A DNA stretch of 64,000 bases, from positions 3,188 through 67,187 of the forward strand of contig JBAZJY010000003.1 in assembly GCA_041651115.1 (NCBI GenBank), read 5' to 3'. The stretch comes from Candidatus Omnitrophota bacterium. Lineage in GTDB: Bacteria; Omnitrophota; Gorgyraeia; Gygaellales; Profunditerraquicolaceae. Shown here piece after piece: positions 524 to 63,320 of the stretch (the stretch's first letter is position 1; every line of letters starts with the position of its first letter). The notes under the pieces are model-generated. The model saw nothing but the letters and a program-made list of their open reading frames with translations. It was not told the DNA's origin and made no database searches. Position numbers and translations under genes: made by a program.

Positions 524-1306
524 TTAAGGAAAGATTTTTGTGGGGTAGCCTTCCGCGGAAAGCCTGGCTTCCAATTCCAAAGCCTCTTGCCGGCTGGCCA
601 GCTTGCCTGATCTTACCCGGTAAACCGGCGCTCCCTGTGAAACCGCTTCTTCAATAAAAGCAGAATAGCCGCTGCGTTCCAGCCGGCGAATGAGATTTTC
701 AGCATTAGCCTTGCTGGCAAAAGAGCCCACCTGCACGGAATAATAGAAGTCATTATTTACCAATAAAAAAGCCTCCCAGCCGGGTTCAACATTCAAGGGA
801 AATTCCCGGCTAAGCCGGTCAAGATAATCCTTGGCAGCAGCGGTATTGCCAAGCTTGGCTTCGCATTGGCTTAAACGGGAATAAACAACCGCTTTTAAAT
901 TTAGCGCATCCTGCCCTGCCAACAGCTCAAGATAACCGTTCTTTGCTTTTTGGAAATCTCCCCGGAAAAAATATGTATCGCTAAGCCCCAGCCGCGCCTG
1001 GGGCGCGTAGCGGCTGGACTTAAGCTCATTAATGATTATTTCAAAAATATCCGACGCGCGCAGGAAATTGCCGTCTTTAAGATAGCTCAAACCGAGAATA
1101 TAATACAGCGCGTCCGCGTCTCTGTCGTTTCCTGCGGAGGCAAGCATCTTTTCGCCTCTGGTTATGGCTGCTCTGTAATCGCCGCTCATCAGATCGGCCT
1201 TAAGCGGATCAAGGTCTAATGCGTAAGCGGGCGTAGAAATCATAAATAATAAGAGCGCCAAATATAAAAAAACATTATCATTGCGAGCGAAGCGAAACAA
1301 TCTCAC
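524..1306 (-). CDS. TPR-repeat protein with C-terminal SPOR (peptidoglycan-binding) domain, signal peptide
   Basis: N-terminal hydrophobic signal (LYLALLLFMISTPAYA). Several TPR-like helical repeats. C-terminal YYSVQVGSF..A..L...L...GY..FI......YRVRSG segment is typical of SPOR domains. Confidence 0.65.
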   Translation of the reverse strand: MRLFRFARNDNVFLYLALLLFMISTPAYALDLDPLKADLMSGDYRAAITRGEKMLASAGNDRDADALYYILGLSYLKDGNFLRASDIFEIIINELKSSRYAPQARLGLSDTYFFRGDFQKAKNGYLELLAGQDALNLKAVVYSRLSQCEAKLGNTAAAKDYLDRLSREFPLNVEPGWEAFLLVNNDFYYSVQVGSFASKANAENLIRRLERSGYSAFIEEAVSQGAPVYRVRSGKLASRQEALELEARLSAEGYPTKIFP

Positions 1307-2445
1307 TTTTTCCCTCTTGATATTTTTTTCTGCAGCTCCAGTATCAACGCGTGCCTTCTTTCCTTTTCCTGCTTCGGCACATCATCTCCCAGCTTAAGGC
1401 TTGCGGTATTCGGCCGGGGTGAATATTTAAAGATGTATGCCGTGTCAAAGCCAACGCCCTTTACAAGATTATAGGTATGCTTAAAATCCGCTTCTGTTTC
1501 TGTCGGAAAACCTACGATGATGTCGGTTGTCAACTTAGGGCTATCTACGATTTTACGATAATTATCCGCCAATGCCAAATAGAATTTTGCCGTATAGCCG
1601 CGGTTCATCAATTTAAGTATCTTGTCCGACCCTGACTGCGCCGGAAGATGCAAATATTTTTTCAGCTTATCGCAAGCTGCCATTGCCTTGAATAATTCAA
1701 CGTCCGCGTCTTTCGGATGAGAGGTGATAAAACTGAATTCCTTCAGCCCCGCAATGGAATTAACGCGCTCAAGCAGCTTAATAAAATCAATATTCCCGTC
1801 TTGATAGGCATTAACGTTTTGGCCTAAAAGAGTGACCTTAACAATACCTTTATCCAGCGCAAGTTTTATTTCATCCAGGATATCTGCGTGCTTACGGTGC
1901 CTTAACCTGCCGCGCGTATAAGGCACAACGCAGTAAGAGCAGAAATTCGAGCAGCCTTCTGAAATAACCACAAAGGAATGCTCTTTATCTTCGTAAAAAC
2001 CCGTATGATAAATTTCCTCTGGCCTGTTCCCGCCTTCCGTTTCCCAGATTTTTACCTCATATAGGCTTTTACCTGTCGCCTGACACCTGTCGCCTGACAC
2101 CTTCTTTATGATTCCCGGGATCTTATGAATATCGGATGGCCCAACTACAAAATCCACGGCTGGACAACGCTCGAAAACCCTATCCTGATAATTCTGCGCC
2201 ATGCAACCAATGAGCCCGATAACCGGGATTCCCTGTTTCTTGAACCTTCCGATCTCGCTCCAAACCTTATCCTCGGCATGTTGCCGGACTGCGCAGGTGT
2301 TAAAGATAAGAATATCCGCCTTTTCCGGGACGCCTGCCAGTTGAAAACCGGAATCCTTCAGCAATCCGGCAACCACTTCCGAATCGCGTAGATTCATTTG
2401 ACAGCCAAAACTGCGAAGATAAACCTTTTTCTTATCTTCTTTCAT
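1303..2445 (-). CDS. radical SAM methylthiotransferase, MiaB/RimO/MtaB family (UPF0004 MTTase domain + radical SAM; TRAM domain apparently absent)
   Basis: N-terminal YLRSFGCQMNLRDSEV...NTCAVRQHAEDK (MTTase domain). CSNFCSYC radical SAM CxxxCxxC. 380 aa ends with a 4-nt ATGA overlap onto the next gene, so it is short rather than frameshifted. Adjacent to miaA. Contains an in-frame 2x14-nt repeat insert (VSGDRCQATGKS) at 2071-2103. Confidence 0.75.
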   Translation of the reverse strand: MKEDKKKVYLRSFGCQMNLRDSEVVAGLLKDSGFQLAGVPEKADILIFNTCAVRQHAEDKVWSEIGRFKKQGIPVIGLIGCMAQNYQDRVFERCPAVDFVVGPSDIHKIPGIIKKVSGDRCQATGKSLYEVKIWETEGGNRPEEIYHTGFYEDKEHSFVVISEGCSNFCSYCVVPYTRGRLRHRKHADILDEIKLALDKGIVKVTLLGQNVNAYQDGNIDFIKLLERVNSIAGLKEFSFITSHPKDADVELFKAMAACDKLKKYLHLPAQSGSDKILKLMNRGYTAKFYLALADNYRKIVDSPKLTTDIIVGFPTETEADFKHTYNLVKGVGFDTAYIFKYSPRPNTASLKLGDDVPKQEKERRHALILELQKKISRGKK

Positions 2446-17125: not shown

Positions 17126-17199
17126 CAGCCGCCGTTATTTTAACGTCCGGCGGCGCAGTCCCCTGCTTCTTAGGGGAAAACCACCGGATAACAAATTAG

Positions 17200-17273
17200 T
17201 GGCGGCGAGAGGATTTAAACCTCTGACTTATCGGGTATGAGCCGACTACTCTATCGGGCTGAGTTACGCCGCC
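17200..17273 (-). tRNA. tRNA with CAT anticodon (elongator Met or Ile2/lysidine type). No encoded CCA.
   Basis: Minus strand: GGCGGCG-TA-ACTC-AGCCCGATA-GAGT-A-GTCGG-CTCATAC-CCGAT-AAGTC-AGAGG-TTTAAAT-CCTCT-CGCCGCC-A. It folds as a cloverleaf with a 7/4/5/5 bp stem pattern. The D-loop has GA instead of GG18-19 and the T-loop has U56 instead of C56, an apparent A19-U56 covariation. About 125 nt upstream of tilS in the same orientation. Confidence 0.75.
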
Positions 17274-41642: not shown

Positions 41643-43103
41643 TTATAACTTTGGTTTTTGCAAATGCCACGCCGTGCCTTGTTCATAAGCATGGGCCGCG
41701 CGTAAAATGGCCTCTTCGTTAAAAGGCCTGGCCAAGATCTGCAAGCCGACAGGCAGCCCGGCCTTCGTAAAGCCGCATGGTAGGGATATTGCCGGAATAC
41801 CTGCCAGGTTCACGGATATCGTATAGATATCCGACAAATACATACTTAAAGGGTCTTGCGCCTTCTCCCCGATCTTAAACGCCGGAGTAGGTGAAGTAGG
41901 GGTAATAATACAGTCAAAATCAGCGAACACAGCGTCAAAATCCTGTTTGATCAGAGTCCTCACCTTTAATGCGCGTAAATAGTAAGCATCGTAATAGCCG
42001 TGTGAAAGCGCGAATGTTCCCAAAAGAATCCTGCGTTTTGCCTCTTCGCCAAAACCCTGGCCGCGCGTTCTTTTATACATCTCAATCATGCTCTGGCCAT
42101 GCGCAGCAGTATTTTTGGCGCGATAGCCGTATTGCACGCCGTCAAAACGGGCGAGATTAGAGCTCGCCTCGGCAGTGGCAATAATATAATAAACCGGAAC
42201 AGCATATTCGGTATGGGGCAAAGACACCTGCTTGCAAGAAGCGCCCAAACTTTTTAATTTTTCAACTGCTTCTTCAACAATGCTCCTTACTTCCGGGTCC
42301 ATTCCATCAATAAAATATTCTTTAGGCAATGCGATCTTCATTCCCTTAATATCATTGGTCAGCGATCTTGTGTAATCCGGCACCGGCAGGTCGACAGAAG
42401 TAGAATCGTTTGTATCATGGCCGGAAATAACATTCATTAGCAGCGCCGAATCGCGCACATCTTTGGTGATCGGGCCGATCTGATCAAGGCTTGAGGCAAA
42501 TGCGATCAAGCCGTAACGGGAAACCCTGCCGTATGTCGGCTTCAACCCAACCACTCCGCAGAAGGCTGCCGGTTGGCGGATGGAACCGCCGGTATCAGAG
42601 CCTAATGCCATAATTGCTTCATCCGCGGCAATTGCCGCAGCAGATCCACCGGATGAGCCGCCGGGCACGCGCTCCAAATCCCAGGGGTTGCGCGTGGGGC
42701 CAAAACAGGAATTCTCCGTAGATGAACCAAACGCAAATTCATCCATATTTGCCTTGGCAGCTAAAACTACTGCTCCTGCACTTTTAAGTTTTTTTATGAC
42801 TGTCGCATCATAAGGAGGCTTAAATCCGGCAAGGATCTTTGAGCAGCATTCGGTATTCTGGCCGTCGGTGCAGATATTGTCCTTGATGGTAACGGGGATG
42901 CCGCTTAGGTGATAGGTGTCAGGTGTCAGGTGTTGGGCGTCAGGTGATAGGCCCAAGGGATCAGAAAGCCTGACATAGGCCTTAACCTTAGGATCGGTTT
43001 TTTTAATACATCGTTCTAAATCTGCAATAACATCCCGGGAGGTTATTTCTTTTTTCCCTAATTTCCCTAAAAATTCATGCGCAGTTAATCTATTTAGTTC
43101 CAT
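41643..43103 (-). CDS. gatA: Asp-tRNA(Asn)/Glu-tRNA(Gln) amidotransferase subunit A (amidase signature)
   Basis: [13 protein letters not shown] amidase signature. 486 aa. Contains an in-frame heptamer-repeat-derived insert ([13 protein letters not shown]) at 42908-42952. Confidence 0.9.
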
Positions 43104-43152
43104 TATATTCTTTCTAACCTGACACCTAACACCTAAGACCTAACACCTATCA
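43104..43152. repeat. tandem heptanucleotide repeats (mRNA strand GATAGGT GTTAGGT CTTAGGT GTTAGGT GTCAGGT) filling the gatC-gatA junction
   Basis: Five tandem GTYAGGT units on the minus (mRNA) strand between the gatC stop (43150) and the gatA start (43103). Each unit carries an SD-like AGGT(G). Confidence 0.65.
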
Positions 43153-43437
43153 TTCAATGACTTTCGGCACGATGAAAAACGTATCGCGTTTTTCCGGCGC
43201 GTTTGCCAGCGCCTTTTGGCTGGACAGGGAAATCCCCGGATGATCTTGCCGCAATACATTGCTTAACGGAAGGATATGGCTTGTCGCTGCGATATTATCC
43301 GTGTTTACGCCTTTTAGCTTATCAATAAAATCAAGTATACTGCTAAGCTGCCCGGAGATCTTCTCCAATTCCTGCGGCTCAAGCTCAATGCGGCTTAAAT
43401 GCGCGACATATTCAACTATTTCTTTATTTATTGCCAT
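43150..43437 (-). CDS. gatC: Asp-tRNA(Asn)/Glu-tRNA(Gln) amidotransferase subunit C
   Basis: 95 aa. IEYVAHLSRIELEPQELEKISGQLSSILDFIDKL is the typical GatC sequence. Confidence 0.8.
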   Translation of the reverse strand: MAINKEIVEYVAHLSRIELEPQELEKISGQLSSILDFIDKLKGVNTDNIAATSHILPLSNVLRQDHPGISLSSQKALANAPEKRDTFFIVPKVIE

Positions 43438-52964: not shown

Positions 52965-53566
52965 TTTATTATCCTTACCCTTTGCGGCGGCCAATATACT
53001 ACCATTGCCTGCCCCAGGATATTCTCCGCCGGAACAAACCCCCAATAACGGCTGTCTTGCGAAGAAGCAGAGTTATCACCCAAAACAAAATAGCTGTCCT
53101 TCGGGACAGCGATCTTTACCCCTTCCGGCGCGAAATCACCCCGGTTATAGTAATACCTCTGGCTAAAGCCATAATCAATAAGCGGATGGTTATTGATATA
53201 TATGGTGCCGTTCTTGATCTCAACCGTATCTCCGGGCAAACCCACCAGCCGTTTTATGAAATCTTTTTTCGGGTCGTCAGGATAAATAAAAACTACGATA
53301 TCCCCTCTTTTCGGTATGCGTACTTTCGGTATCCTGAAGTTGATAAAAGGTACCTTTGCCCCGTAAATGAATTTATTGACCAGGATAATATCTCCCTCTA
53401 AAAGCGTCGGCCGCATTGAACCGGTGGGTATCTTAAAAGCCTGCACTACGAACGTGCGGATGAACATCGCCAAAATAAAAGCGATAAGAATAGACTCTGC
53501 CCATTCACGGACAACCGATTTCTTTTTTATGCCTGCGCTTTCATGCCCTGTAGCTTTGTCGCTCAT
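52961..53566 (-). CDS. lepB: signal peptidase I (S26)
   Basis: SMRPTLLEGDIILVNK (catalytic Ser box) and GDNSASSQDSRYWGFVPAENILGQA (box E). Confidence 0.85.
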   Translation of the reverse strand: MSDKATGHESAGIKKKSVVREWAESILIAFILAMFIRTFVVQAFKIPTGSMRPTLLEGDIILVNKFIYGAKVPFINFRIPKVRIPKRGDIVVFIYPDDPKKDFIKRLVGLPGDTVEIKNGTIYINNHPLIDYGFSQRYYYNRGDFAPEGVKIAVPKDSYFVLGDNSASSQDSRYWGFVPAENILGQAMVVYWPPQRVRIIK

Positions 53567-55359
53567 ATTTTTAATACCTCCAAAAATGCCTCTTGCGGGA
53601 TTTCTACCCTGCCGAATTGCTTAAGCCGCTTCTTGCCTTCCTTCTGCTTATCCCAAAGTTTACGTTTACGGGTGATATCCCCGCCGTAGCATTTGCTGGT
53701 TACTGCCTTTGCCAGCGCCCGGATCTTCTGCGAAGCAATAATCTGGCTGCCTACCGCTGCCTGGATCACAACTTCAAATACCTGCCGCGGGATCAACTCT
53801 CTAAGCTTGTCAACTAAGGCATGCGCCTTATGCGCAGCCTTATCCTTATGCATTAAAGAAGAAAACGCGTCGCAAACAATGCCGTTTAAAAGAATATCCA
53901 GTTTTACCAGCTTAGTCGGCAGATAATCGCTGAATTCATAATCAATAGAACCGTAGCCCTTGGTCAGTGATTTCATCCGGTCATAAAAATCCACGATGAT
54001 CTCCGAAAGCGGGATCTCAAATACCACCTTCACCCTATCCTCTCCCAGATAATCGCTGGAACGGAATGTCCCCCGCCGCGATTTAGCCAGTTCGCATACC
54101 AGGTCAATGGTATCCACGGGAATGATCATCAATAAATTCACATAAGGCTCATACGCCTCTAAAACGTCCTGCGGCGAGAATTTTGCCGGGGTATCTACCT
54201 CAATGACCGCGCCGTCCCTGCCTTTTACTTTATAGACTACATTCGGGACAGTAAGTATCAAATTTAAATTATATTCCCGCTCTAATCGTTCCTGCACGAT
54301 CTCCATATGCAAAAGGCCTAAGAATCCGCAGCGGAAACCAAAACCGAATGACTGTGAATTTTCCGGCTCAAATACGAACGAGGCGTCGGATAATTTCAGC
54401 TTATCCATTGCCTCGCGCAGGTCGGGAAAATCCGCGGCATTCACCGGATAGATGCCGCAGAAAACCAAAGGCTTAAGGATTTTGTAACCGGGTAGAACAC
54501 CGTCGCAAGGATTGCGGTTATCGGCGATCGTGTCGCCGATGATGATCTCGCGCGCGTCGCGGATATTGGCGGTAAAATAACCTACTTCGCCTGCGGTCAA
54601 ACTGCCGACTTTCGTATATTTGAGGTTTGCCAGAACGCCCAATTCTTCGATTTTATAAATCGTCCCGGAATGCATCATTTTAAGCGGGGTATTCGGCATA
54701 ACTTCTCCGTCCACTACCCTGACAAAAACTACCACTCCCTTAAAAGGATCATAACGGCAGTCAAAAACCAGCGCCTTCAAAGGCCGGCTGTTCTCCCCTG
54801 CCGGTTCAGGCACCACCTCAATGATCCGCTCTAAGATATCTTCAATGCCGATGCCTTCTTTGGCGGAAGCAAGAATAATCTCTTCTTCCTCAAACCCCAG
54901 GACAGTATTGATCTGCCGTTTTACACGCGGCAGATCAATGGCAGTCAAGTCGATCTTATTGATCACCGGGATTATTTTCAGGTTATTTTCCCGCGCCAGA
55001 TAATAATTCGCCACTGTCTGCGCTTCAATACCCTGGCCTGCATCCACGACCAGCACCGCGGCTTCGCAGGCAGCTAAAGATTTAGAAACTTCGTAAGTAA
55101 AATCTACGTGGCCGGGGGTATCAATGAGGTTCAGGATATAATCTTTACCGGTTTTTTTAGAACGATAGGCAAGCCTGACCATTGAGGCCTTAATGGTAAT
55201 GCCGCGCTCTCGCTCAAGGTCCATATCGTCTAAAAGCTGGGCGCGCGACGTCCGCTTATCTACCGCCCCGGTCAATTCAAGGATACGGTCGGCAAGTGTA
55301 GATTTGCCGTGGTCTATATGGGCGATTATTGAAAAATTACGGATCAAAGATTTATCCAT
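53563..55359 (-). CDS. lepA: translation elongation factor 4 (LepA/EF4)
   Basis: IRNFSIIAHIDHGKSTLADRIL G-domain plus the LepA-specific C-terminal domain. 598 aa. No SD visible upstream of the ATG. Confidence 0.9.
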   Translation of the reverse strand: MDKSLIRNFSIIAHIDHGKSTLADRILELTGAVDKRTSRAQLLDDMDLERERGITIKASMVRLAYRSKKTGKDYILNLIDTPGHVDFTYEVSKSLAACEAAVLVVDAGQGIEAQTVANYYLARENNLKIIPVINKIDLTAIDLPRVKRQINTVLGFEEEEIILASAKEGIGIEDILERIIEVVPEPAGENSRPLKALVFDCRYDPFKGVVVFVRVVDGEVMPNTPLKMMHSGTIYKIEELGVLANLKYTKVGSLTAGEVGYFTANIRDAREIIIGDTIADNRNPCDGVLPGYKILKPLVFCGIYPVNAADFPDLREAMDKLKLSDASFVFEPENSQSFGFGFRCGFLGLLHMEIVQERLEREYNLNLILTVPNVVYKVKGRDGAVIEVDTPAKFSPQDVLEAYEPYVNLLMIIPVDTIDLVCELAKSRRGTFRSSDYLGEDRVKVVFEIPLSEIIVDFYDRMKSLTKGYGSIDYEFSDYLPTKLVKLDILLNGIVCDAFSSLMHKDKAAHKAHALVDKLRELIPRQVFEVVIQAAVGSQIIASQKIRALAKAVTSKCYGGDITRKRKLWDKQKEGKKRLKQFGRVEIPQEAFLEVLKI

Positions 55360-55360
55360 A

Positions 55361-55500
55361 TGGTAATTTTAGGTTAAGTTATTAGGTTAAGGTTAAGAGG
55401 CCAGTATGGTAAATAGGTTAGGGTTAAGTATCAATGGCCTAAACTTAACCCTTAAACCATACCGGCTTCCTGCCCCTAACCCTAACCATAACCTACAGAT
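55361..55500. repeat. ~135-nt imperfect inverted repeat built from telomere-like heptamers (GGTTAAG/GGTTAGG ... CCCTAACC) between cmk and lepA
   Basis: Left arm GGTTAAGTTATTAGGTTAAGGTTAAG...GGTTAGGGTTAAGT. Right arm ACTTAACCCTTAAACC...CCCTAACCCTAACC is its approximate reverse complement. Immediately adjacent to the lepA start codon. Confidence 0.55.
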
Positions 55501-56146
55501 ATCCCGAAAGTGCTTTCACAACTTCTTCTATACTCATTTCCGTCGTATCTATGTAAATTGCGTCGTCTGCTTTCTTAAGCGGCGAATGCGAGCGCGTTGA
55601 ATCGATCGTGTCGCGGTTACACAGGTCAGCCTGAACGTCTTCTAAGGTAACGGCCTGGCCTGCGGCAATAAGTTCCTTATGCCGCCTTACTGCCCGCTCC
55701 TCAAACTGCGCGTCCACATAAAATTTCCTGTCTGCTGCGGGAAAAACCACGGTCCCGATATCGCGGCCGTCAAGCACGCTGTCTTTATAGGCCCCCAGCC
55801 GCCTTTGCAGCTTAACAAGGATCTCCCGCACTTCTTTTATCTTGGCTACGTCAGAAACAACGGCAGTAACCCGCGGCTCTCTGATCTCCTGCGAAACGTC
55901 GCGGCCGTCTAAAAATACTTTTAGCGGGCCTGCGCCGGGGTCATTTACCAGGTCGATATCGCTGGCTGATGCCATTTTCACTACCGCGGCAGCATCTTTA
56001 ATGTCAATCCCGGATTCAATCGCCTTTAATGCCAGGGCGCGGTACATTGCCCCGGTGTCAATATAAAGAAAGCCCAGTTTCTGGGCCAATAATTTCGCGA
56101 CTGTGCTCTTGCCCGCGCCTGCCGGGCCGTCAATGGCAATGATCAC
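55493..56146 (-). CDS. cmk: cytidylate kinase
   Basis: IIAIDGPAGAGKSTVAKLLAQKLGFLYIDTGAMYRA is the canonical Cmk N-terminus. Confidence 0.85.
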   Translation of the reverse strand: MIIAIDGPAGAGKSTVAKLLAQKLGFLYIDTGAMYRALALKAIESGIDIKDAAAVVKMASASDIDLVNDPGAGPLKVFLDGRDVSQEIREPRVTAVVSDVAKIKEVREILVKLQRRLGAYKDSVLDGRDIGTVVFPAADRKFYVDAQFEERAVRRHKELIAAGQAVTLEDVQADLCNRDTIDSTRSHSPLKKADDAIYIDTTEMSIEEVVKALSGYL

Positions 56147-58266: not shown

Positions 58267-59358
58267 TTATGAAATTTTCTTTAACGCCTCCACGAACTTC
58301 CGGTTTTCCTTTTTTGTACCGATGGTTACGCGGATAAAATTCTTTAAGCCGTATTGTTTCATGTCCCTGACAATCACTCCGCGCTTAAGCAGGTCCTTGA
58401 ATACAGCCGAGCCGTCCCTGCCTGTATCAACCAGTATAAAATTGGCTACTGACGGTACAAAGGCAAGCCCCATTTTCTTCAACTCCTCATAAAGGTAATT
58501 CTTACCTTCCAGTACTGCCCTGCGCGATTTCTGCAGGAATTTTTTATCGTCAAGGGCCGCTGCGGCAGCAGCCTGGGCCAAGCTATTCACGTTAAACGGC
58601 TGGCGCGCTTTTTCCATTGCCTGGATCAATTCCTGCTTGGCAACGGCATAACCAACGCGCAAGCCCGCAAGGCCGTAAACCTTAGAGAACGTCTTCAGAA
58701 TAATCACATTCCCGCCGCCAATGTGGCTGATGCTTGAAGGAAAATCATTCACGTCAATGAAAGTCTCATAAGCCTCATCAAGCACGAGTAAAACATCGTC
58801 CGGCAGGCTCTTAAGGAATTCCTGCACTTCATGGCGCGTAATATAGGTACCGGTCGGGTTATTGGGATTGGCGATAAATATTGTCTTTGTTTTCCTGTCA
58901 ATCTTTTTCCTGATCGCTTCAAGGTCAAATTTAAAATATTTCAGCGGCGCGGTGACCACCTTGCGGTTATTTACCTTGGCAATGATCGCGTATTCAAGGA
59001 ACGTGGTATCGGCGGTAACAATGTTCTCATCTTCCTCAACAAAGGTCTTGATGATAATATCGATGATCTCATCCGAGCCGTTACCCAGAAGGATATTTGC
59101 CGGTTTAAGGTTAAGGCAGCGCGCCAGCTTCTTCTTCAGGTAAAATCCTCCGGAATCCGGATAGCGGTTGATCTTACCGAGGCTTTTCCTTATTGCCTCG
59201 ATCGCCTTAGGGGGCGCCCCAAGCGGATTTTCATTAGAAGCAAGCTTGATCACGTCCTTAAGGCCGAACTCGCGCTTTGTCTCTTCAATCGGCTTTCCCG
59301 CGATATACGGAGTTATCTCAGCTATATTTTTTCTTACCAGATCTTTCATCATAATCAC
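58267..59358 (-). CDS. hisC: histidinol-phosphate/aromatic aminotransferase (class II PLP aminotransferase)
   Basis: KLASNENPLGAPPKA...YPD N-terminal motif. PLP-lysine region (TFSKVYGLAGLRVGY). GTG start at 59358 or ATG at 59352/59349. Confidence 0.75.
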   Translation of the reverse strand: MIMMKDLVRKNIAEITPYIAGKPIEETKREFGLKDVIKLASNENPLGAPPKAIEAIRKSLGKINRYPDSGGFYLKKKLARCLNLKPANILLGNGSDEIIDIIIKTFVEEDENIVTADTTFLEYAIIAKVNNRKVVTAPLKYFKFDLEAIRKKIDRKTKTIFIANPNNPTGTYITRHEVQEFLKSLPDDVLLVLDEAYETFIDVNDFPSSISHIGGGNVIILKTFSKVYGLAGLRVGYAVAKQELIQAMEKARQPFNVNSLAQAAAAAALDDKKFLQKSRRAVLEGKNYLYEELKKMGLAFVPSVANFILVDTGRDGSAVFKDLLKRGVIVRDMKQYGLKNFIRVTIGTKKENRKFVEALKKIS

Positions 59359-59386
59359 CTAATGCCTATCACCTAACACCTAATTA
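59355..59386. repeat. tandem heptanucleotide repeats (mRNA strand TTAGGTG TTAGGTG ATAGGCA TTAGGTG AT) at the pheA-hisC junction
   Basis: Same GTYAGGT family as at the gatC-gatA junction. Gives AGGTGAT SD-like motifs 4-8 nt before the hisC start codons. Confidence 0.65.
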
Positions 59387-60445
59387 TTCCCCCACCGGAT
59401 ATGATCCGAGGACCTTCATGAATTTACATTTTCCTTCCAGCTCTTGCAGCGCTTTTTTTACCCTGATTTCGCTTACATGCCCCTGAAGATCAACGTAGAA
59501 ATAATAGTCCCATGCCTTTTTCTTGGAAGGCCGTGACTCGATCTTTGTCAGGTTAAGCTTATATTTTTTAAAAGGTAAAAGCATGTCATGCAGCGCGCCG
59601 ACTTTGTCCTTAATAGAAAACATTATTGACGTGCGGTCATTGCCGGTTGCCGGGACGTCGGATTTTCCGATCACAAGGAACCGGGTGATGTTATGCGGAG
59701 AATCTTCTATGCCGGAAGCGATTACCTTGAGCTTATATATTTTTGCCGCCAAGAGCGAAGCAATACAGGCGCTGCCTTTTTCTTTCGCAGCGATCTGCGC
59801 GGCGCGAGTGGTACTGGAAACCTCTATTTTCTGCGCGCAGGCAAGGTTCTTCTCAAGCCACAGCCGGCATTGCCCGAATACGTTCGGATTGGAATACACT
59901 TTTTTAATTTTATTTTTTGGGCAATTCGCCAAAAGATTATGCGATATATCAAGGATTATCTGGCTGCAGATCTTTAGATCCGAGTCAATGAACATATCCA
60001 ACGTATAGCTGATCGCTCCTTCAATGGAATTTTCTATCGGCACCACACCGTAATCGGCATTACCTCTTTCCACTTCCAAAAATACCTCGCCGATAGAATC
60101 ACAGGCAAGATACTCTACCTGCGTGCCGAATCTTTTTATTGCCGCAAGATTGCTGAAAGATGCCTCGGGCCCCATATAAGCGACCTTCATCGCCTTACCT
60201 AGCGCAAGGCTGGACGACATGATCTCCCGGTATATTGCTTCCAAAGCCCCGGTGCCAAGCGGCCCCCTGCCAAGCGATGCTACTTTTTTCAAGACTTCTC
60301 TTTCGCGGTCAGGCGAATAAACGCTTTTTCCGGAGCTGATCTTTACCTTAGCAATGCCGGAGCTGACCTTGGCGCGCGCGTTCAAAAGCCCGATGATCTT
60401 TTTATCAATGCCGTCAATTTCCTTCCGTAGCTTTTGCAGGCTCAT
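59384..60445 (-). CDS. pheA: bifunctional chorismate mutase / prephenate dehydratase with ACT domain
   Basis: N-terminal chorismate-mutase helix (LRKEIDGIDKKIIGLLNARAKV). PDT domain. C-terminal ACT (IMFSIKDKVGALHDMLLPF). Confidence 0.8.
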   Translation of the reverse strand: MSLQKLRKEIDGIDKKIIGLLNARAKVSSGIAKVKISSGKSVYSPDREREVLKKVASLGRGPLGTGALEAIYREIMSSSLALGKAMKVAYMGPEASFSNLAAIKRFGTQVEYLACDSIGEVFLEVERGNADYGVVPIENSIEGAISYTLDMFIDSDLKICSQIILDISHNLLANCPKNKIKKVYSNPNVFGQCRLWLEKNLACAQKIEVSSTTRAAQIAAKEKGSACIASLLAAKIYKLKVIASGIEDSPHNITRFLVIGKSDVPATGNDRTSIMFSIKDKVGALHDMLLPFKKYKLNLTKIESRPSKKKAWDYYFYVDLQGHVSEIRVKKALQELEGKCKFMKVLGSYPVGE

Positions 60446-62954: not shown

Positions 62955-62989
62955 CTGTTCCTCCTATTTTTTGTTTTTAATTAATAGAC

Positions 62990-63320
62990 AAGCAGGATAA
63001 GCCGGGTTCTGTGTGGGATGCGAATATCCGCTTCCTAAAGTGGCCATTCCTCTAAACCCCGGCGTTGCCGCCGGGATCAAGCAGCCTACCCGAGACTATT
63101 AACGGAGAGGCACTCCTCGTCTCTTATTCGGCCTTGCTCCTCGTAGAGATTGCTCGTTTCACCCCCGCCGTTTTGAGGCGGCGGGACTCGTCTCTGTAGC
63201 TCTGATCCTCACCCCGGCAATACTGCCTGAGCGGACGGGTGTTACCCGCTACGGTGCCTTCTGGAGCCCGGACTTTCCTCCCCCGCAGCTTAAACTGCGG
63301 GGGCAGCCACATCCTGCCTG
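62990..63320 (-). ncRNA. rnpB: RNase P RNA (bacterial type A)
   Basis: Minus strand contains GGAAAGTCCGGGCTCC (P4 5' strand), a P3 hairpin CCCGCAG..CTGCGGG, GGGTAGGCTGCTTGA and 3' ACAGAACCCGGCTTATC. The P1 strands GCAGGAT/ATCCTGC pair. The ORF 63124..63312 in the track is therefore spurious. Confidence 0.8.

What the first reader, a model, noticed from the sequence alone, without database searches (positions are those of the whole stretch)
42908..42952. The same heptamer repeat inserted in-frame inside coding sequences (gatA and the MiaB-like gene)
Within gatA the DNA is ggtgataggtgtcaggtgtcaggtgttgggcgtcaggtgatagg on the plus strand. On the mRNA strand this encodes an extra Pro/Asp/Thr/His-rich segment ([13 protein letters not shown]) just before the conserved GIP..KDNI motif. 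At 2071-2103 two 14-nt units (acctgtcgcctgac x2) encode VSGDRCQATGKS in the linker of the methylthiotransferase.

Internal SD-like AGGTG runs inside ORFs are normally selected against because they cause translational pausing. Tolerated coding insertions of an intergenic repeat point to an actively spreading element or a slippage hotspot, and are candidate phase-variable sites.
Basis: seen in the sequence. Interest (0 to 1): 0.5.

Follow-up and report, generated by a model that had tools for sequence, protein, structure and literature searches.

The report
Heptamer repeats inside gatA and miaB
In this Omnitrophota genome a 7-base repeat really does sit in frame inside two housekeeping genes, filling protein linkers that are free to vary, and the gatA copy is the mirror image of a repeat just upstream of gatA, an arrangement shared by ten related lineages that use different repeat units.

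Summary
Four arrays of one heptamer family (AGGTGNN / NNCACCT) lie in the window: inside gatA, inside a MiaB-like gene, and in two spacers between genes of one operon.

- In gatA the mRNA carries CACCU, the complement of a Shine-Dalgarno (SD) motif.
- The tract replaces an ancestral helix and adds no length. In MiaB it adds about 6 residues.
- Across roughly 120 Omnitrophota orthologues of each protein, both sites are hypervariable linkers built from lineage-specific 7-nt repeats. A 7-residue periodicity is 2- to 4-fold enriched.
- Two GatA proteins of one 90% cluster differ there by seven extra residues (21 nt, three units) plus substitutions.
- This fits heptanucleotide simple-sequence repeats evolving by slippage in permissive loops. 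It does not fit on/off phase variation or a mobile element.

The new finding is that the gatA array is complementary (36 nt, 86%) to the gatC-gatA spacer array. The two bracket the gatA start and about 50 codons. Ten other lineages show the same pairing with four different repeat units. Arrays at a second gatA site have no partner.

I think an mRNA stem affecting gatA translation is most likely. DNA-level homogenisation is not excluded, because the G-U versus A-C test was inconclusive.

The parts
42905..42951 (-). Heptamer array inside gatA, about 6.7 units. The mRNA reads CCUAUC ACCUGAC GCCCAAC ACCUGAC ACCUGAC ACCUAUC ACCUAAG and encodes [16 protein letters not shown]. It is the 3' (coding) arm of the inverted repeat.
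   Evidence: Inverted pair I1 uses 42910-42945.
43114..43152 (-). Heptamer array filling the gatC-gatA spacer. The mRNA reads UGA UAGGUGU UAGGUCU UAGGUGU UAGGUGU CAGGUUAG. It begins with the gatC stop codon and ends 14 nt before the gatA ATG. It is the 5' (spacer) arm.
   Evidence: I1 arm 43117-43152 is 36 nt and 86% complementary to 42910-42945.
42946..43116 (-). The 171-nt segment enclosed by the two arms: the last 13 nt of the spacer, the gatA start codon (43101-43103) and codons 1 to about 52.
   Evidence: 171 nt between the arms. In one search the minimum-free-energy fold of 42880-43170 closes this segment with the long stem: -99 kcal/mol, z -6.8.
41643..43103 (-). gatA, amidase subunit of GatCAB, 486 aa.
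43150..43437 (-). gatC, 95 aa.
   Evidence: PF02686.
2068..2102 (-). Heptamer array inside the MiaB-like gene. The mRNA reads AGGUGUC AGGCGAC AGGUGUC AGGCGAC AGGUAAA and encodes (K)VSGDRCQATGK. It sits in the linker between the UPF0004 and radical-SAM domains and has no complementary partner nearby.
1303..2445 (-). MiaB-like methylthiotransferase, 380 aa: UPF0004 at residues 7-102 and Radical_SAM at 159-328. No TRAM domain was detected.
59354..59383 (-). Heptamer array filling the spacer between pheA (59384-60445) and a class I/II aminotransferase gene (58267-59352). The mRNA reads UUAGGUG UUAGGUG AUAGGCA UUAGGUG AUU AUG. It has no partner.

Best explanation
**What the tracts are**
- They are arrays of a genome-specific heptanucleotide simple-sequence repeat (AGGTGNN on one strand, NNCACCT on the other).
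- In GatA and MiaB they occupy linkers with little or no sequence constraint. In most Omnitrophota these linkers are made of whichever short repeat the lineage carries: 7-mers, sometimes 8-mers or a GC-rich palindrome.
- They change by replication slippage. Only changes of three units (21 nt, 7 residues) would keep the reading frame, so those should be the ones that survive in these genes. Repeated contraction and re-expansion replaces the unit sequence. (Inferred from comparison; not observed directly.)

**What is specific to the gatA array**
- On the mRNA it is complementary to the array that fills the gatC-gatA spacer. Together they form a 36-bp long-range inverted repeat. (Shown.)
- The repeat starts at the gatC stop codon and encloses the end of the spacer, the gatA start codon and about 50 codons. 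(Shown.)
- The same arrangement is kept in ten other lineages although the repeat unit differs. (Shown.)

**Most likely function (inferred, not shown)**
- In the gatCAB mRNA the stem restricts free ribosome access to the gatA start.
- Ribosomes terminating on gatC would melt the outer turns of the stem. Ribosomes already translating through gatA codons 53-66 would melt the rest.
- gatA translation would thereby be tied to ongoing translation of the operon.
For: **Repeat nature and chance:**

**Permissive, repeat-built linkers**
- 120 GatA orthologues are hypervariable between KAYVR and GIPVSIKDN, with peptides such as NTQHPTPNTQHLIP, NSQLPTPNSQL and EPANLRTKEPEN.
- 120 MiaB orthologues have a linker of 0-45 residues, commonly about 10 with a 7-residue period.
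- Offset-7 residue identity is 0.142 against about 0.07 at other offsets (GatA), and 0.193 against about 0.05 (MiaB).
- DNA of relatives shows (CCATCGT)x5.3, (CTGCAAN)x5 and similar arrays at the same GatA site.
- Outgroups and PDB structures have an ordinary helix there.

**Slippage in three-unit steps:** P0110 and P0132 differ in the loop by seven extra residues plus six substitutions.

**Pairing**
- I1 arms are 36 nt, 86% complementary and 171 nt apart.
- The minimum-free-energy fold contains the stem, z -6.8.
- An ungapped helix score between spacer and loop exceeds all 200 shuffles in 11 lineages. Their units are AGGTG/CACCT (window, L014, L162, L167, L170, where the arms reach 74 nt), GTTC/GAAC (L082, L086, L165), GAGTT/AACTC (L166, L171) and AAGCT/AGCTT (L168).
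- The distance between arms is always 155-189 nt.
- Folds contain 24-66 long-range base pairs.
- A T-A pair in L165 corresponds to a C-G pair in L082 at the same stem position.
- The pairing is specific. Eight arrays at a second gatA site (around codon 325) and the MiaB array have no partner.
- Unit families do not follow the GatA C-terminal tree.
Against: **Weaknesses of the pairing evidence**
- With scoring that treats G-U and A-C alike, G-U is not significantly commoner: 18 vs 8 (p = 0.076), 24 vs 19, and 38 vs 35. Nothing therefore shows that the sense RNA, rather than the DNA, is what is kept complementary.
- Most mismatches are transversions at the variable unit positions, so several stems are interrupted every 4-6 bp. 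Fold z-scores are weak in L082, L168 and L171 (-1.0 to -1.6).

**Weaknesses of the functional reading**
- The stem usually ends 5-21 nt before the ATG and often leaves an SD-like AGG free.
- About half of the Omnitrophota loci examined have no spacer array at all; there the gatC stop abuts the gatA ATG. The device is dispensable.
- Two or three lineages carry both arrays without complementarity (L088, L172, and weakly L164).
- A near-perfect 36-74 bp duplex should be an RNase III substrate, which would destroy gatA mRNA.

**Missing data**
- No read-level or expression data were available.
Confidence: 0.55

Rival explanations
1. The complementarity is a neutral by-product at the DNA level. Two nearby arrays of one repeat family in opposite orientation are kept alike by template switching or gene conversion between inverted repeats (quasipalindrome correction), or they travel together when the gatA 5' region recombines. 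No RNA function is involved. The coding orientation is set by which strand encodes a tolerable, A/C-rich, hydrophilic peptide.
For: - There is no G-U over A-C excess under unbiased scoring.
- Many lineages manage without the spacer array.
- Genome-specific heptamer arrays in inverted pairs are common in spacers of many phyla.
- Coding arms are always A/C-rich on the sense strand.
- L171 and L172 are about 99-100% identical for more than 2.8 kb downstream of the loop but about 65-70% identical upstream, so the 5' module can be exchanged.
Against: - Genomes carry several different heptamer units. The second gatA array in L082, L162, L165 and L168 has another unit. Same-family arrays at both the spacer and loop 1 in 11 of about 14 lineages that have both need a link.
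- Second-site arrays and the MiaB array never have partners.
- The arms are 155-189 nt apart, which is far for simple hairpin-templated copying.
Confidence: 0.3
2. One reading: the tracts are copies of an actively spreading intergenic element, or contingency loci whose unit number switches gatA and miaB on and off.
For: - The same unit occurs at four places in 64 kb, in coding sequence and in spacers.
- The loops differ greatly between close relatives.
Against: - Gain or loss of one or two 7-nt units shifts the frame, and both genes are core translation-related housekeeping genes.
- The arrays are short and imperfect (72% matches).
- All roughly 240 orthologues listed are full-length proteins.
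- The one close-relative loop-length gain examined is seven residues, i.e. three units.
- No terminal repeats or target duplications were evident.
- The same two protein sites are occupied phylum-wide with different units. That points to in-place turnover, not insertion.
Confidence: 0.07
3. The arrays are binding sites for a trans-acting protein that recognises tandem heptamers on DNA or RNA. This has been proposed for TAACTGA repeats in Beggiatoaceae and for tandem heptamer sites in Geobacter. The coding copies would be tolerated extra sites.
For: - Three of the four arrays put AGGUG on the mRNA. Two of them fill spacers immediately upstream of start codons.
- Precedents are PMC4679880 and PMC2700814.
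Against: - The unit differs between lineages whose GatA C-terminal regions are 87-91% identical. A cognate binding protein would have to change with it.
- No candidate protein was identified.
Confidence: 0.1
4. The two arms are recombination sites for a DNA inversion that flips the gatA 5' end, acting as a programmed on/off switch or swapping in an alternative N-terminus.
For: 36-74 bp inverted repeats bracket the 5' end of a gene.
Against: - A simulated inversion gives no ORF reading into GIPVTIKDN; a stop sits directly before the loop.
- No invertase was noted beside the operon.
- Every assembly examined has the 'on' orientation.
Confidence: 0.03

Closest known systems
Long heptanucleotide simple-sequence repeats of prokaryotes (Mrazek et al. 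2007, as summarised in PMC4679880 and PMC4692102), including cyanobacterial heptanucleotide tandem repeats and Xanthomonas GGGAATC arrays
   Same: Tandem 7-nt units, a few copies per array, one unit reused at many places in a genome. They are mostly between genes, vary in length and sequence between close relatives, and sometimes occur as inverted pairs.
   Different: Here half of the arrays seen are inside conserved housekeeping genes, at the same two linker sites across a phylum. One coding array pairs with a spacer array 171 nt away.
TAACTGA direct repeats of marine Beggiatoaceae (MacGregor 2015, PMC4679880)
   Same: Heptamer arrays of 2-6 copies lie directly upstream of start codons, often in spacers without a canonical SD. 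A minority lie inside ORFs at the protein periphery, in the orientation that avoids stop codons.
   Different: TAACTGA is one unit shared across phyla. Here the unit is lineage-specific. No complementary coding partner was reported for TAACTGA.
Geobacter metallireducens multicopy elements of four tandem heptamers (GGACCGG, 49 copies within and between genes) and paired tandem hepta/octamer sites (PMC2700814)
   Same: Four or five tandem heptamers, both intragenic and intergenic, and some families found in pairs on opposite strands.
   Different: Those were interpreted as regulator sites or RNA elements, without comparison of orthologous sites. No bracket around a start codon was described.
REP/BIME-type intercistronic hairpins of enterobacteria (my own knowledge)
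   Same: Genome-specific repeats fill spacers within operons and fold into mRNA hairpins. The cmk-lepA spacer in this window is such a hairpin.
   Different: REP arms are adjacent and extragenic. Here one arm is coding sequence and the loop holds the start of an essential gene. No RAYT-type transposase was looked for.
Long-range mRNA pairing that masks a translation start until an upstream or the same cistron is translated, as in the MS2 coat-replicase operator region and structure-dependent coupling in operons (my own knowledge)
   Same: A 5' arm next to the upstream stop codon pairs with a 3' arm inside the downstream ORF, so ribosomes on either cistron would open the stem.
   Different: The arms are simple-sequence repeats that change unit between lineages. 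The SD is often left unpaired. Function is untested.

Membership tests
Heptanucleotide long simple-sequence repeat (LSSR / STRR-like) | Head-to-tail tandem units of 7 nt, at least 3-4 copies | tested here: met
   Tandem Repeats Finder gives period 7 with 4.0-6.7 copies at four sites; register scan.
Heptanucleotide long simple-sequence repeat (LSSR / STRR-like) | More frequent or longer than expected from composition | tested here: met
   12 matches against 1.5 expected; 0 of 100 shuffles reach 12.
Heptanucleotide long simple-sequence repeat (LSSR / STRR-like) | One unit reused at dispersed loci of the same genome | tested here: met
   Four arrays across 57 kb of the window. The whole genome was not available.
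Heptanucleotide long simple-sequence repeat (LSSR / STRR-like) | Copy number or sequence varies between close relatives | tested here: met
   Members of 90% clusters differ in the loop, including a seven-residue (21-nt) gain between P0110 and P0132. Not testable within this genome's own population.
Phase-variable contingency locus | Unit changes reversibly switch the reading frame or promoter spacing | not testable with these tools
   No reads were available. Indirectly: all orthologues listed are full-length proteins, and the one close-relative loop-length gain examined is 21 nt.
Phase-variable contingency locus | Long, near-perfect tract | tested here: not met
   72% matches over 6.7 and 4.6 units at period 7.
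Phase-variable contingency locus | Sits in dispensable surface, restriction-modification or virulence genes | tested here: not met
   The hosts are gatA and a MiaB-like tRNA methylthiotransferase.
MITE / transposable repeat | Terminal inverted repeats bounding a mobile unit, with target-site duplication | tested here: not met
   The inverted arms enclose the conserved N-terminal coding region of gatA. No duplication was evident, and the same protein sites are occupied phylum-wide.
Start-region-masking long-range mRNA stem / structure-dependent translational coupling | Complementarity between the region upstream of the start and a downstream coding segment | tested here: met
   36 nt at 86% complementarity; the stem is present in the minimum-free-energy fold, z -6.8.
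Start-region-masking long-range mRNA stem / structure-dependent translational coupling | Pairing preserved while the sequence changes (covariation) | tested here: met
   11 lineages with four unit families, each z above 4 against shuffles. Caveat: lineages within a family may share ancestry.
Start-region-masking long-range mRNA stem / structure-dependent translational coupling | Strand-specific RNA signature (G-U tolerated, A-C not) | tested here: inconclusive
   18 vs 8 (p = 0.076), 24 vs 19, and 38 vs 35, depending on the scoring scheme.
Start-region-masking long-range mRNA stem / structure-dependent translational coupling | SD or start codon lies within the paired region | tested here: inconclusive
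   The spacer arm ends at -14 here and between -21 and +5 in the others. Only L166 includes the ATG.
Start-region-masking long-range mRNA stem / structure-dependent translational coupling | Expression depends on pairing | not testable with these tools
   Needs reporter constructs or structure probing.

The most novel reading that the evidence does not exclude
Across Omnitrophota, the coding sequence of a dispensable GatA surface loop has been recruited as the 3' arm of a long-range mRNA stem. Its 5' arm is the gatC-gatA spacer. Both arms are simple-sequence repeats that slip, are replaced and stay complementary. The result would be a translational control element for an essential gene that evolves through repeat dynamics.
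Probability: 0.3. Interest if true: 0.75.

Novelty: new variant of a known kind. Interest (0 to 1): 0.55.

Why it matters
- It shows that genome-specific heptamer repeats, usually regarded as intergenic curiosities, routinely form part of conserved housekeeping proteins in a little-studied phylum. This affects annotation, alignment and phylogeny built on GatA and MiaB.
- It gives a natural series (11 lineages, four units) for testing whether simple-sequence repeats can build and maintain functional long-range RNA structure around a start codon.
- If the pairing is instead maintained at the DNA level, the same series is a clean case of concerted evolution between inverted arrays 155-189 nt apart.

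Tried and rejected
- **RNAduplex energies between spacer and loop.** Long internal loops made them uninformative, and the run timed out. I replaced them with an ungapped helix score compared with shuffles.
- **Partners for the MiaB array and the pheA-aminotransferase spacer array.** None was found.
- **Inversion switch.** A simulated inversion gives no ORF.
- **Hypermutable cassette between the arms.** The N-terminal 40 residues evolve faster than the C-terminus in lineages with and without arrays alike: about 55-62% identity at 81% C-terminal identity, and 75-77% at 92%. This is not array-specific.
- **AGGTG as this genome's usual SD.** Upstream regions mostly show GGAG/GGAGG or nothing. AGGTG appears in 3 of 51 upstream regions, two of them at the arrays.
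- **G-U versus A-C strand test.** Inconclusive once the scoring bias was removed.
- **AlphaFold2 model of GatA from 64 close homologues.** Mean pLDDT was 67.5 with many low regions, so the low confidence at residues 51-62 says little.
- **Mosaic pairs among the held loci.** blastn found only L171/L172.
- **Literature.** No paper in the library links Omnitrophota with heptamer repeats.

Full report
**1. The observation**

- The gatA tract lies in minus-strand ORF 41643-43103. This ORF is 100% identical to a protein annotated GatA from a Candidatus Omnitrophota MAG.
- The second tract lies in ORF 1303-2445. That ORF has UPF0004 and radical-SAM domains and is annotated MiaB in the same MAG.
- Tandem Repeats Finder reports period-7 arrays at 2071-2102, 42905-42951, 43117-43149 and 59356-59383.
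- The two-unit pattern AGGTGNNAGGTG occurs 12 times against 1.5 expected. None of 100 shuffles reaches 12.

So this is one heptamer family with four arrays. Two are coding. Two fill spacers within operons: gatC-gatA, and pheA to a class I/II aminotransferase gene.

One correction matters for the interpretation. AGGTG is on the sense strand in the MiaB array and in both spacers. It is on the antisense strand in gatA, so the gatA mRNA carries CACCU.

**2. Insertion or replacement?**

*GatA.*
- In 120 Omnitrophota GatA sequences, the stretch between KAYVR and GIPVSIKDN is hypervariable in length and sequence.
- Nitrospirota and other outgroups carry an ordinary charged helix there.
- S. aureus GatA has 29 residues at that place and Aquifex 23, against 24 in the window.
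- The tract therefore replaces an ancestral helix and adds no length.

*MiaB.*
- Bacteroides MiaB (PDB 7MJV) shows a 6-residue gap opposite DRCQAT.
- Omnitrophota orthologues have linkers of 0-45 residues at that point.

**3. Both linkers are built from repeats across the phylum**

- Many orthologue loops read as translated heptamer arrays. GatA examples are NTQHPTPNTQHLIP, NSQLPTPNSQL, EPANLRTKEPEN and NLQLTTYNLQL. MiaB examples are TSHQSPVTSQ, SAVSCQPSAK and STIDHRLST.
- Residue identity at offset 7 is 0.142 against about 0.07 at other offsets in 111 GatA loops. It is 0.193 against about 0.05 in 74 MiaB linkers.
- DNA from relatives confirms this. L009 has (CCATCGT)x5.3 and L096 has (CTGCAAN)x5. 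L088, L091 and L169 have octamers. L005, L007, L100 and L101 carry a GC-rich palindrome.
- GatA has a second hot spot near codon 325 in at least eight relatives.
- Two proteins of one 90% cluster (P0110 and P0132) have identical N-termini. Their loops differ by seven extra residues (21 nt, three units) plus six substitutions.

This fits slippage in which only frame-preserving changes survive. It does not fit on/off switching of core housekeeping genes.

**4.

- The gatA array and the spacer array are inverted repeats: 36 nt, 86% complementary, 171 nt apart.
- The spacer arm begins with the gatC stop codon and ends 14 nt before the gatA ATG.
- Folded as RNA, 42880-43170 closes on this stem: -99 kcal/mol, z -6.8.

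I fetched gatA loci from genomes, metagenomes and exact-protein look-ups. I then scored ungapped antiparallel complementarity between the 120 nt upstream of gatA and the loop DNA, against 200 shuffles per locus. No shuffle reaches the observed score in eleven lineages:

| Unit family (spacer / coding) | Lineages |
|---|---|
| AGGTG / CACCT | window, L014, L162, L167, L170 (74-nt arms) |
| GTTC / GAAC | L082, L086, L165 |
| GAGTT / AACTC | L166, L171 |
| AAGCT / AGCTT | L168 |

- The arms are always 155-189 nt apart.
- Minimum-free-energy folds include 24-66 long-range pairs.
- The unit families do not follow the GatA C-terminal tree. L162, L165, L167 and L171 are 87-91% identical there yet use three different units.
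- The pairing is specific to this site. Arrays at the second gatA site, the MiaB array and the pheA spacer array have no partner.

**5. Limits of the pairing result**

- About half of the Omnitrophota loci examined have no spacer; there the gatC stop abuts the gatA ATG.
- Six lineages have a coding array only.
- L088 and L172 have both arrays without complementarity.
- With unbiased scoring, G-U is not significantly commoner than A-C: 18 vs 8 (p = 0.076), 24 vs 19, and 38 vs 35. I therefore cannot say whether complementarity is kept in the RNA or in the DNA.
- Several stems are interrupted every few base pairs and fold only weakly.

**6. Mechanism**

*Shown:*
- The repeat nature of the tracts.
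- Permissive linkers occupied by repeats across the phylum.
- A three-unit length gain between two close relatives.
- Complementary arms bracketing the gatA start in eleven lineages with four units.

*Inferred:*
- In the gatCAB mRNA the stem limits free access to the gatA start.
- The stem is opened by ribosomes finishing gatC, whose stop codon is its first paired triplet.
- It is also opened by ribosomes already passing gatA codons 53-66.

*Main rival:* DNA-level homogenisation between nearby inverted arrays, or joint inheritance of the arms with a recombining 5' module.

*Rejected or weakened:*
- An inversion switch is unlikely, since inversion leaves no ORF.
- A 'hypermutable cassette' is rejected. 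The N-terminus evolves fast with or without arrays.

**7. Comparison with what is known**

Heptamer simple-sequence repeats are a described class.
- They are over-represented among long repeats in many bacteria (Mrazek 2007, as cited in PMC4679880 and PMC4692102).
- TAACTGA arrays lie upstream of start codons, and occasionally inside ORFs, in Beggiatoaceae.
- Geobacter metallireducens has 49 four-heptamer elements within and between genes, plus paired sites.
- The loci fetched here show genome-specific heptamer arrays, often as adjacent inverted pairs in spacers, in Nitrospirota, Dehalococcoidales, Deferribacteres and Verrucomicrobiales as well.

The new elements are three: an Omnitrophota-wide occupation of fixed linker sites in housekeeping proteins, the split arrangement with one arm in coding sequence, and pairing that persists while the unit changes. 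No paper in the library links Omnitrophota with such repeats.

**8. Verdict**

Noticed in passing
window 55360-55492: The whole spacer between cmk (55493-56146) and lepA (53563-55359) is one long imperfect hairpin made of inverted TTAGGG/TTAGGT-like 6-7-nt units. Arms are 42 nt at 71% complementarity; RNA fold -60.4 kcal/mol, z -6.3.
   Followed up: partly
L007 1279-1312; L082 6971-7004; L102 1362-1388; L161 3983-4005; L162 3976-4009; L163 1504-1530; L165 3982-4011; L168 3981-4014: There is a second heptamer hot spot inside gatA near codon 325, in the loop between YGYR and LIDMY. Units are lineage-specific, some arrays are perfect (e.g. (CAGTCCA)x4.9, (TCAGAAG)x4.9), and none has a complementary partner. 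The window's GatA has no array there.
   Followed up: partly
L005, L007, L100, L101 (GatA loop); P0172, P0194, P0205, P0213, P0226, P0230, P0265 (MiaB linker): A GC-rich palindromic element (ggggacagtcccc; gtaggggcgaac..gttcgcccctac) is translated inside the same two linkers as ...GQSP..GDSPL.... A REP-like hairpin therefore also occupies these coding sites in some lineages.
   Followed up: no
L171 vs L172; protein clusters of P0020, P0110, P0078, P0055: There is a sharp mosaic. L171 and L172 are about 99-100% identical from just after the GatA loop through gatB (more than 2.8 kb) but about 65-70% identical upstream. Within 90% clusters the C-terminal 415 residues are 94-100% identical, while the N-terminal 45 residues fall to about 65% in members whose loop uses a different repeat unit. 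This is either recombination with a breakpoint at the array or assembly chimeras.
   Followed up: partly
L018 4075-4167 and 16230-16332; L074 11439-11581; L026 6853-6924; L070 15424-15510; L021 6792-6868; L060 1798 and 18520: Genome-specific heptamer arrays, often as adjacent inverted pairs that fill spacers between genes, occur in MAGs of several other phyla (Nitrospirota, Verrucomicrobiales, Deferribacteres, Dehalococcoidales). Several lie beside gatA or gatB.
   Followed up: partly
window 1303-2445: The MiaB-like protein is 380 aa and shows no TRAM domain. Its alignment to PDB 7MJV ends at residue 388 of 457. The Omnitrophota orthologues are 362-448 aa (one 660-aa exception carrying an extra PF05036 domain) and show only PF00919 and PF04055.
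   Followed up: no
window 1-64000: 47 of the 51 long non-overlapping ORFs are on the minus strand. RNase P RNA lies at 62985-63320 (-) and tRNA-Met at 17199-17273 (-).
   Followed up: no
L088 (loop), L091 (loop), L169 (loop): In some lineages the GatA loop carries 8-nt tandem units (AACTCGCC, GAACTCAA, AACGGGCA) that give 8-residue periodic peptides. None has a complementary spacer array.
   Followed up: no
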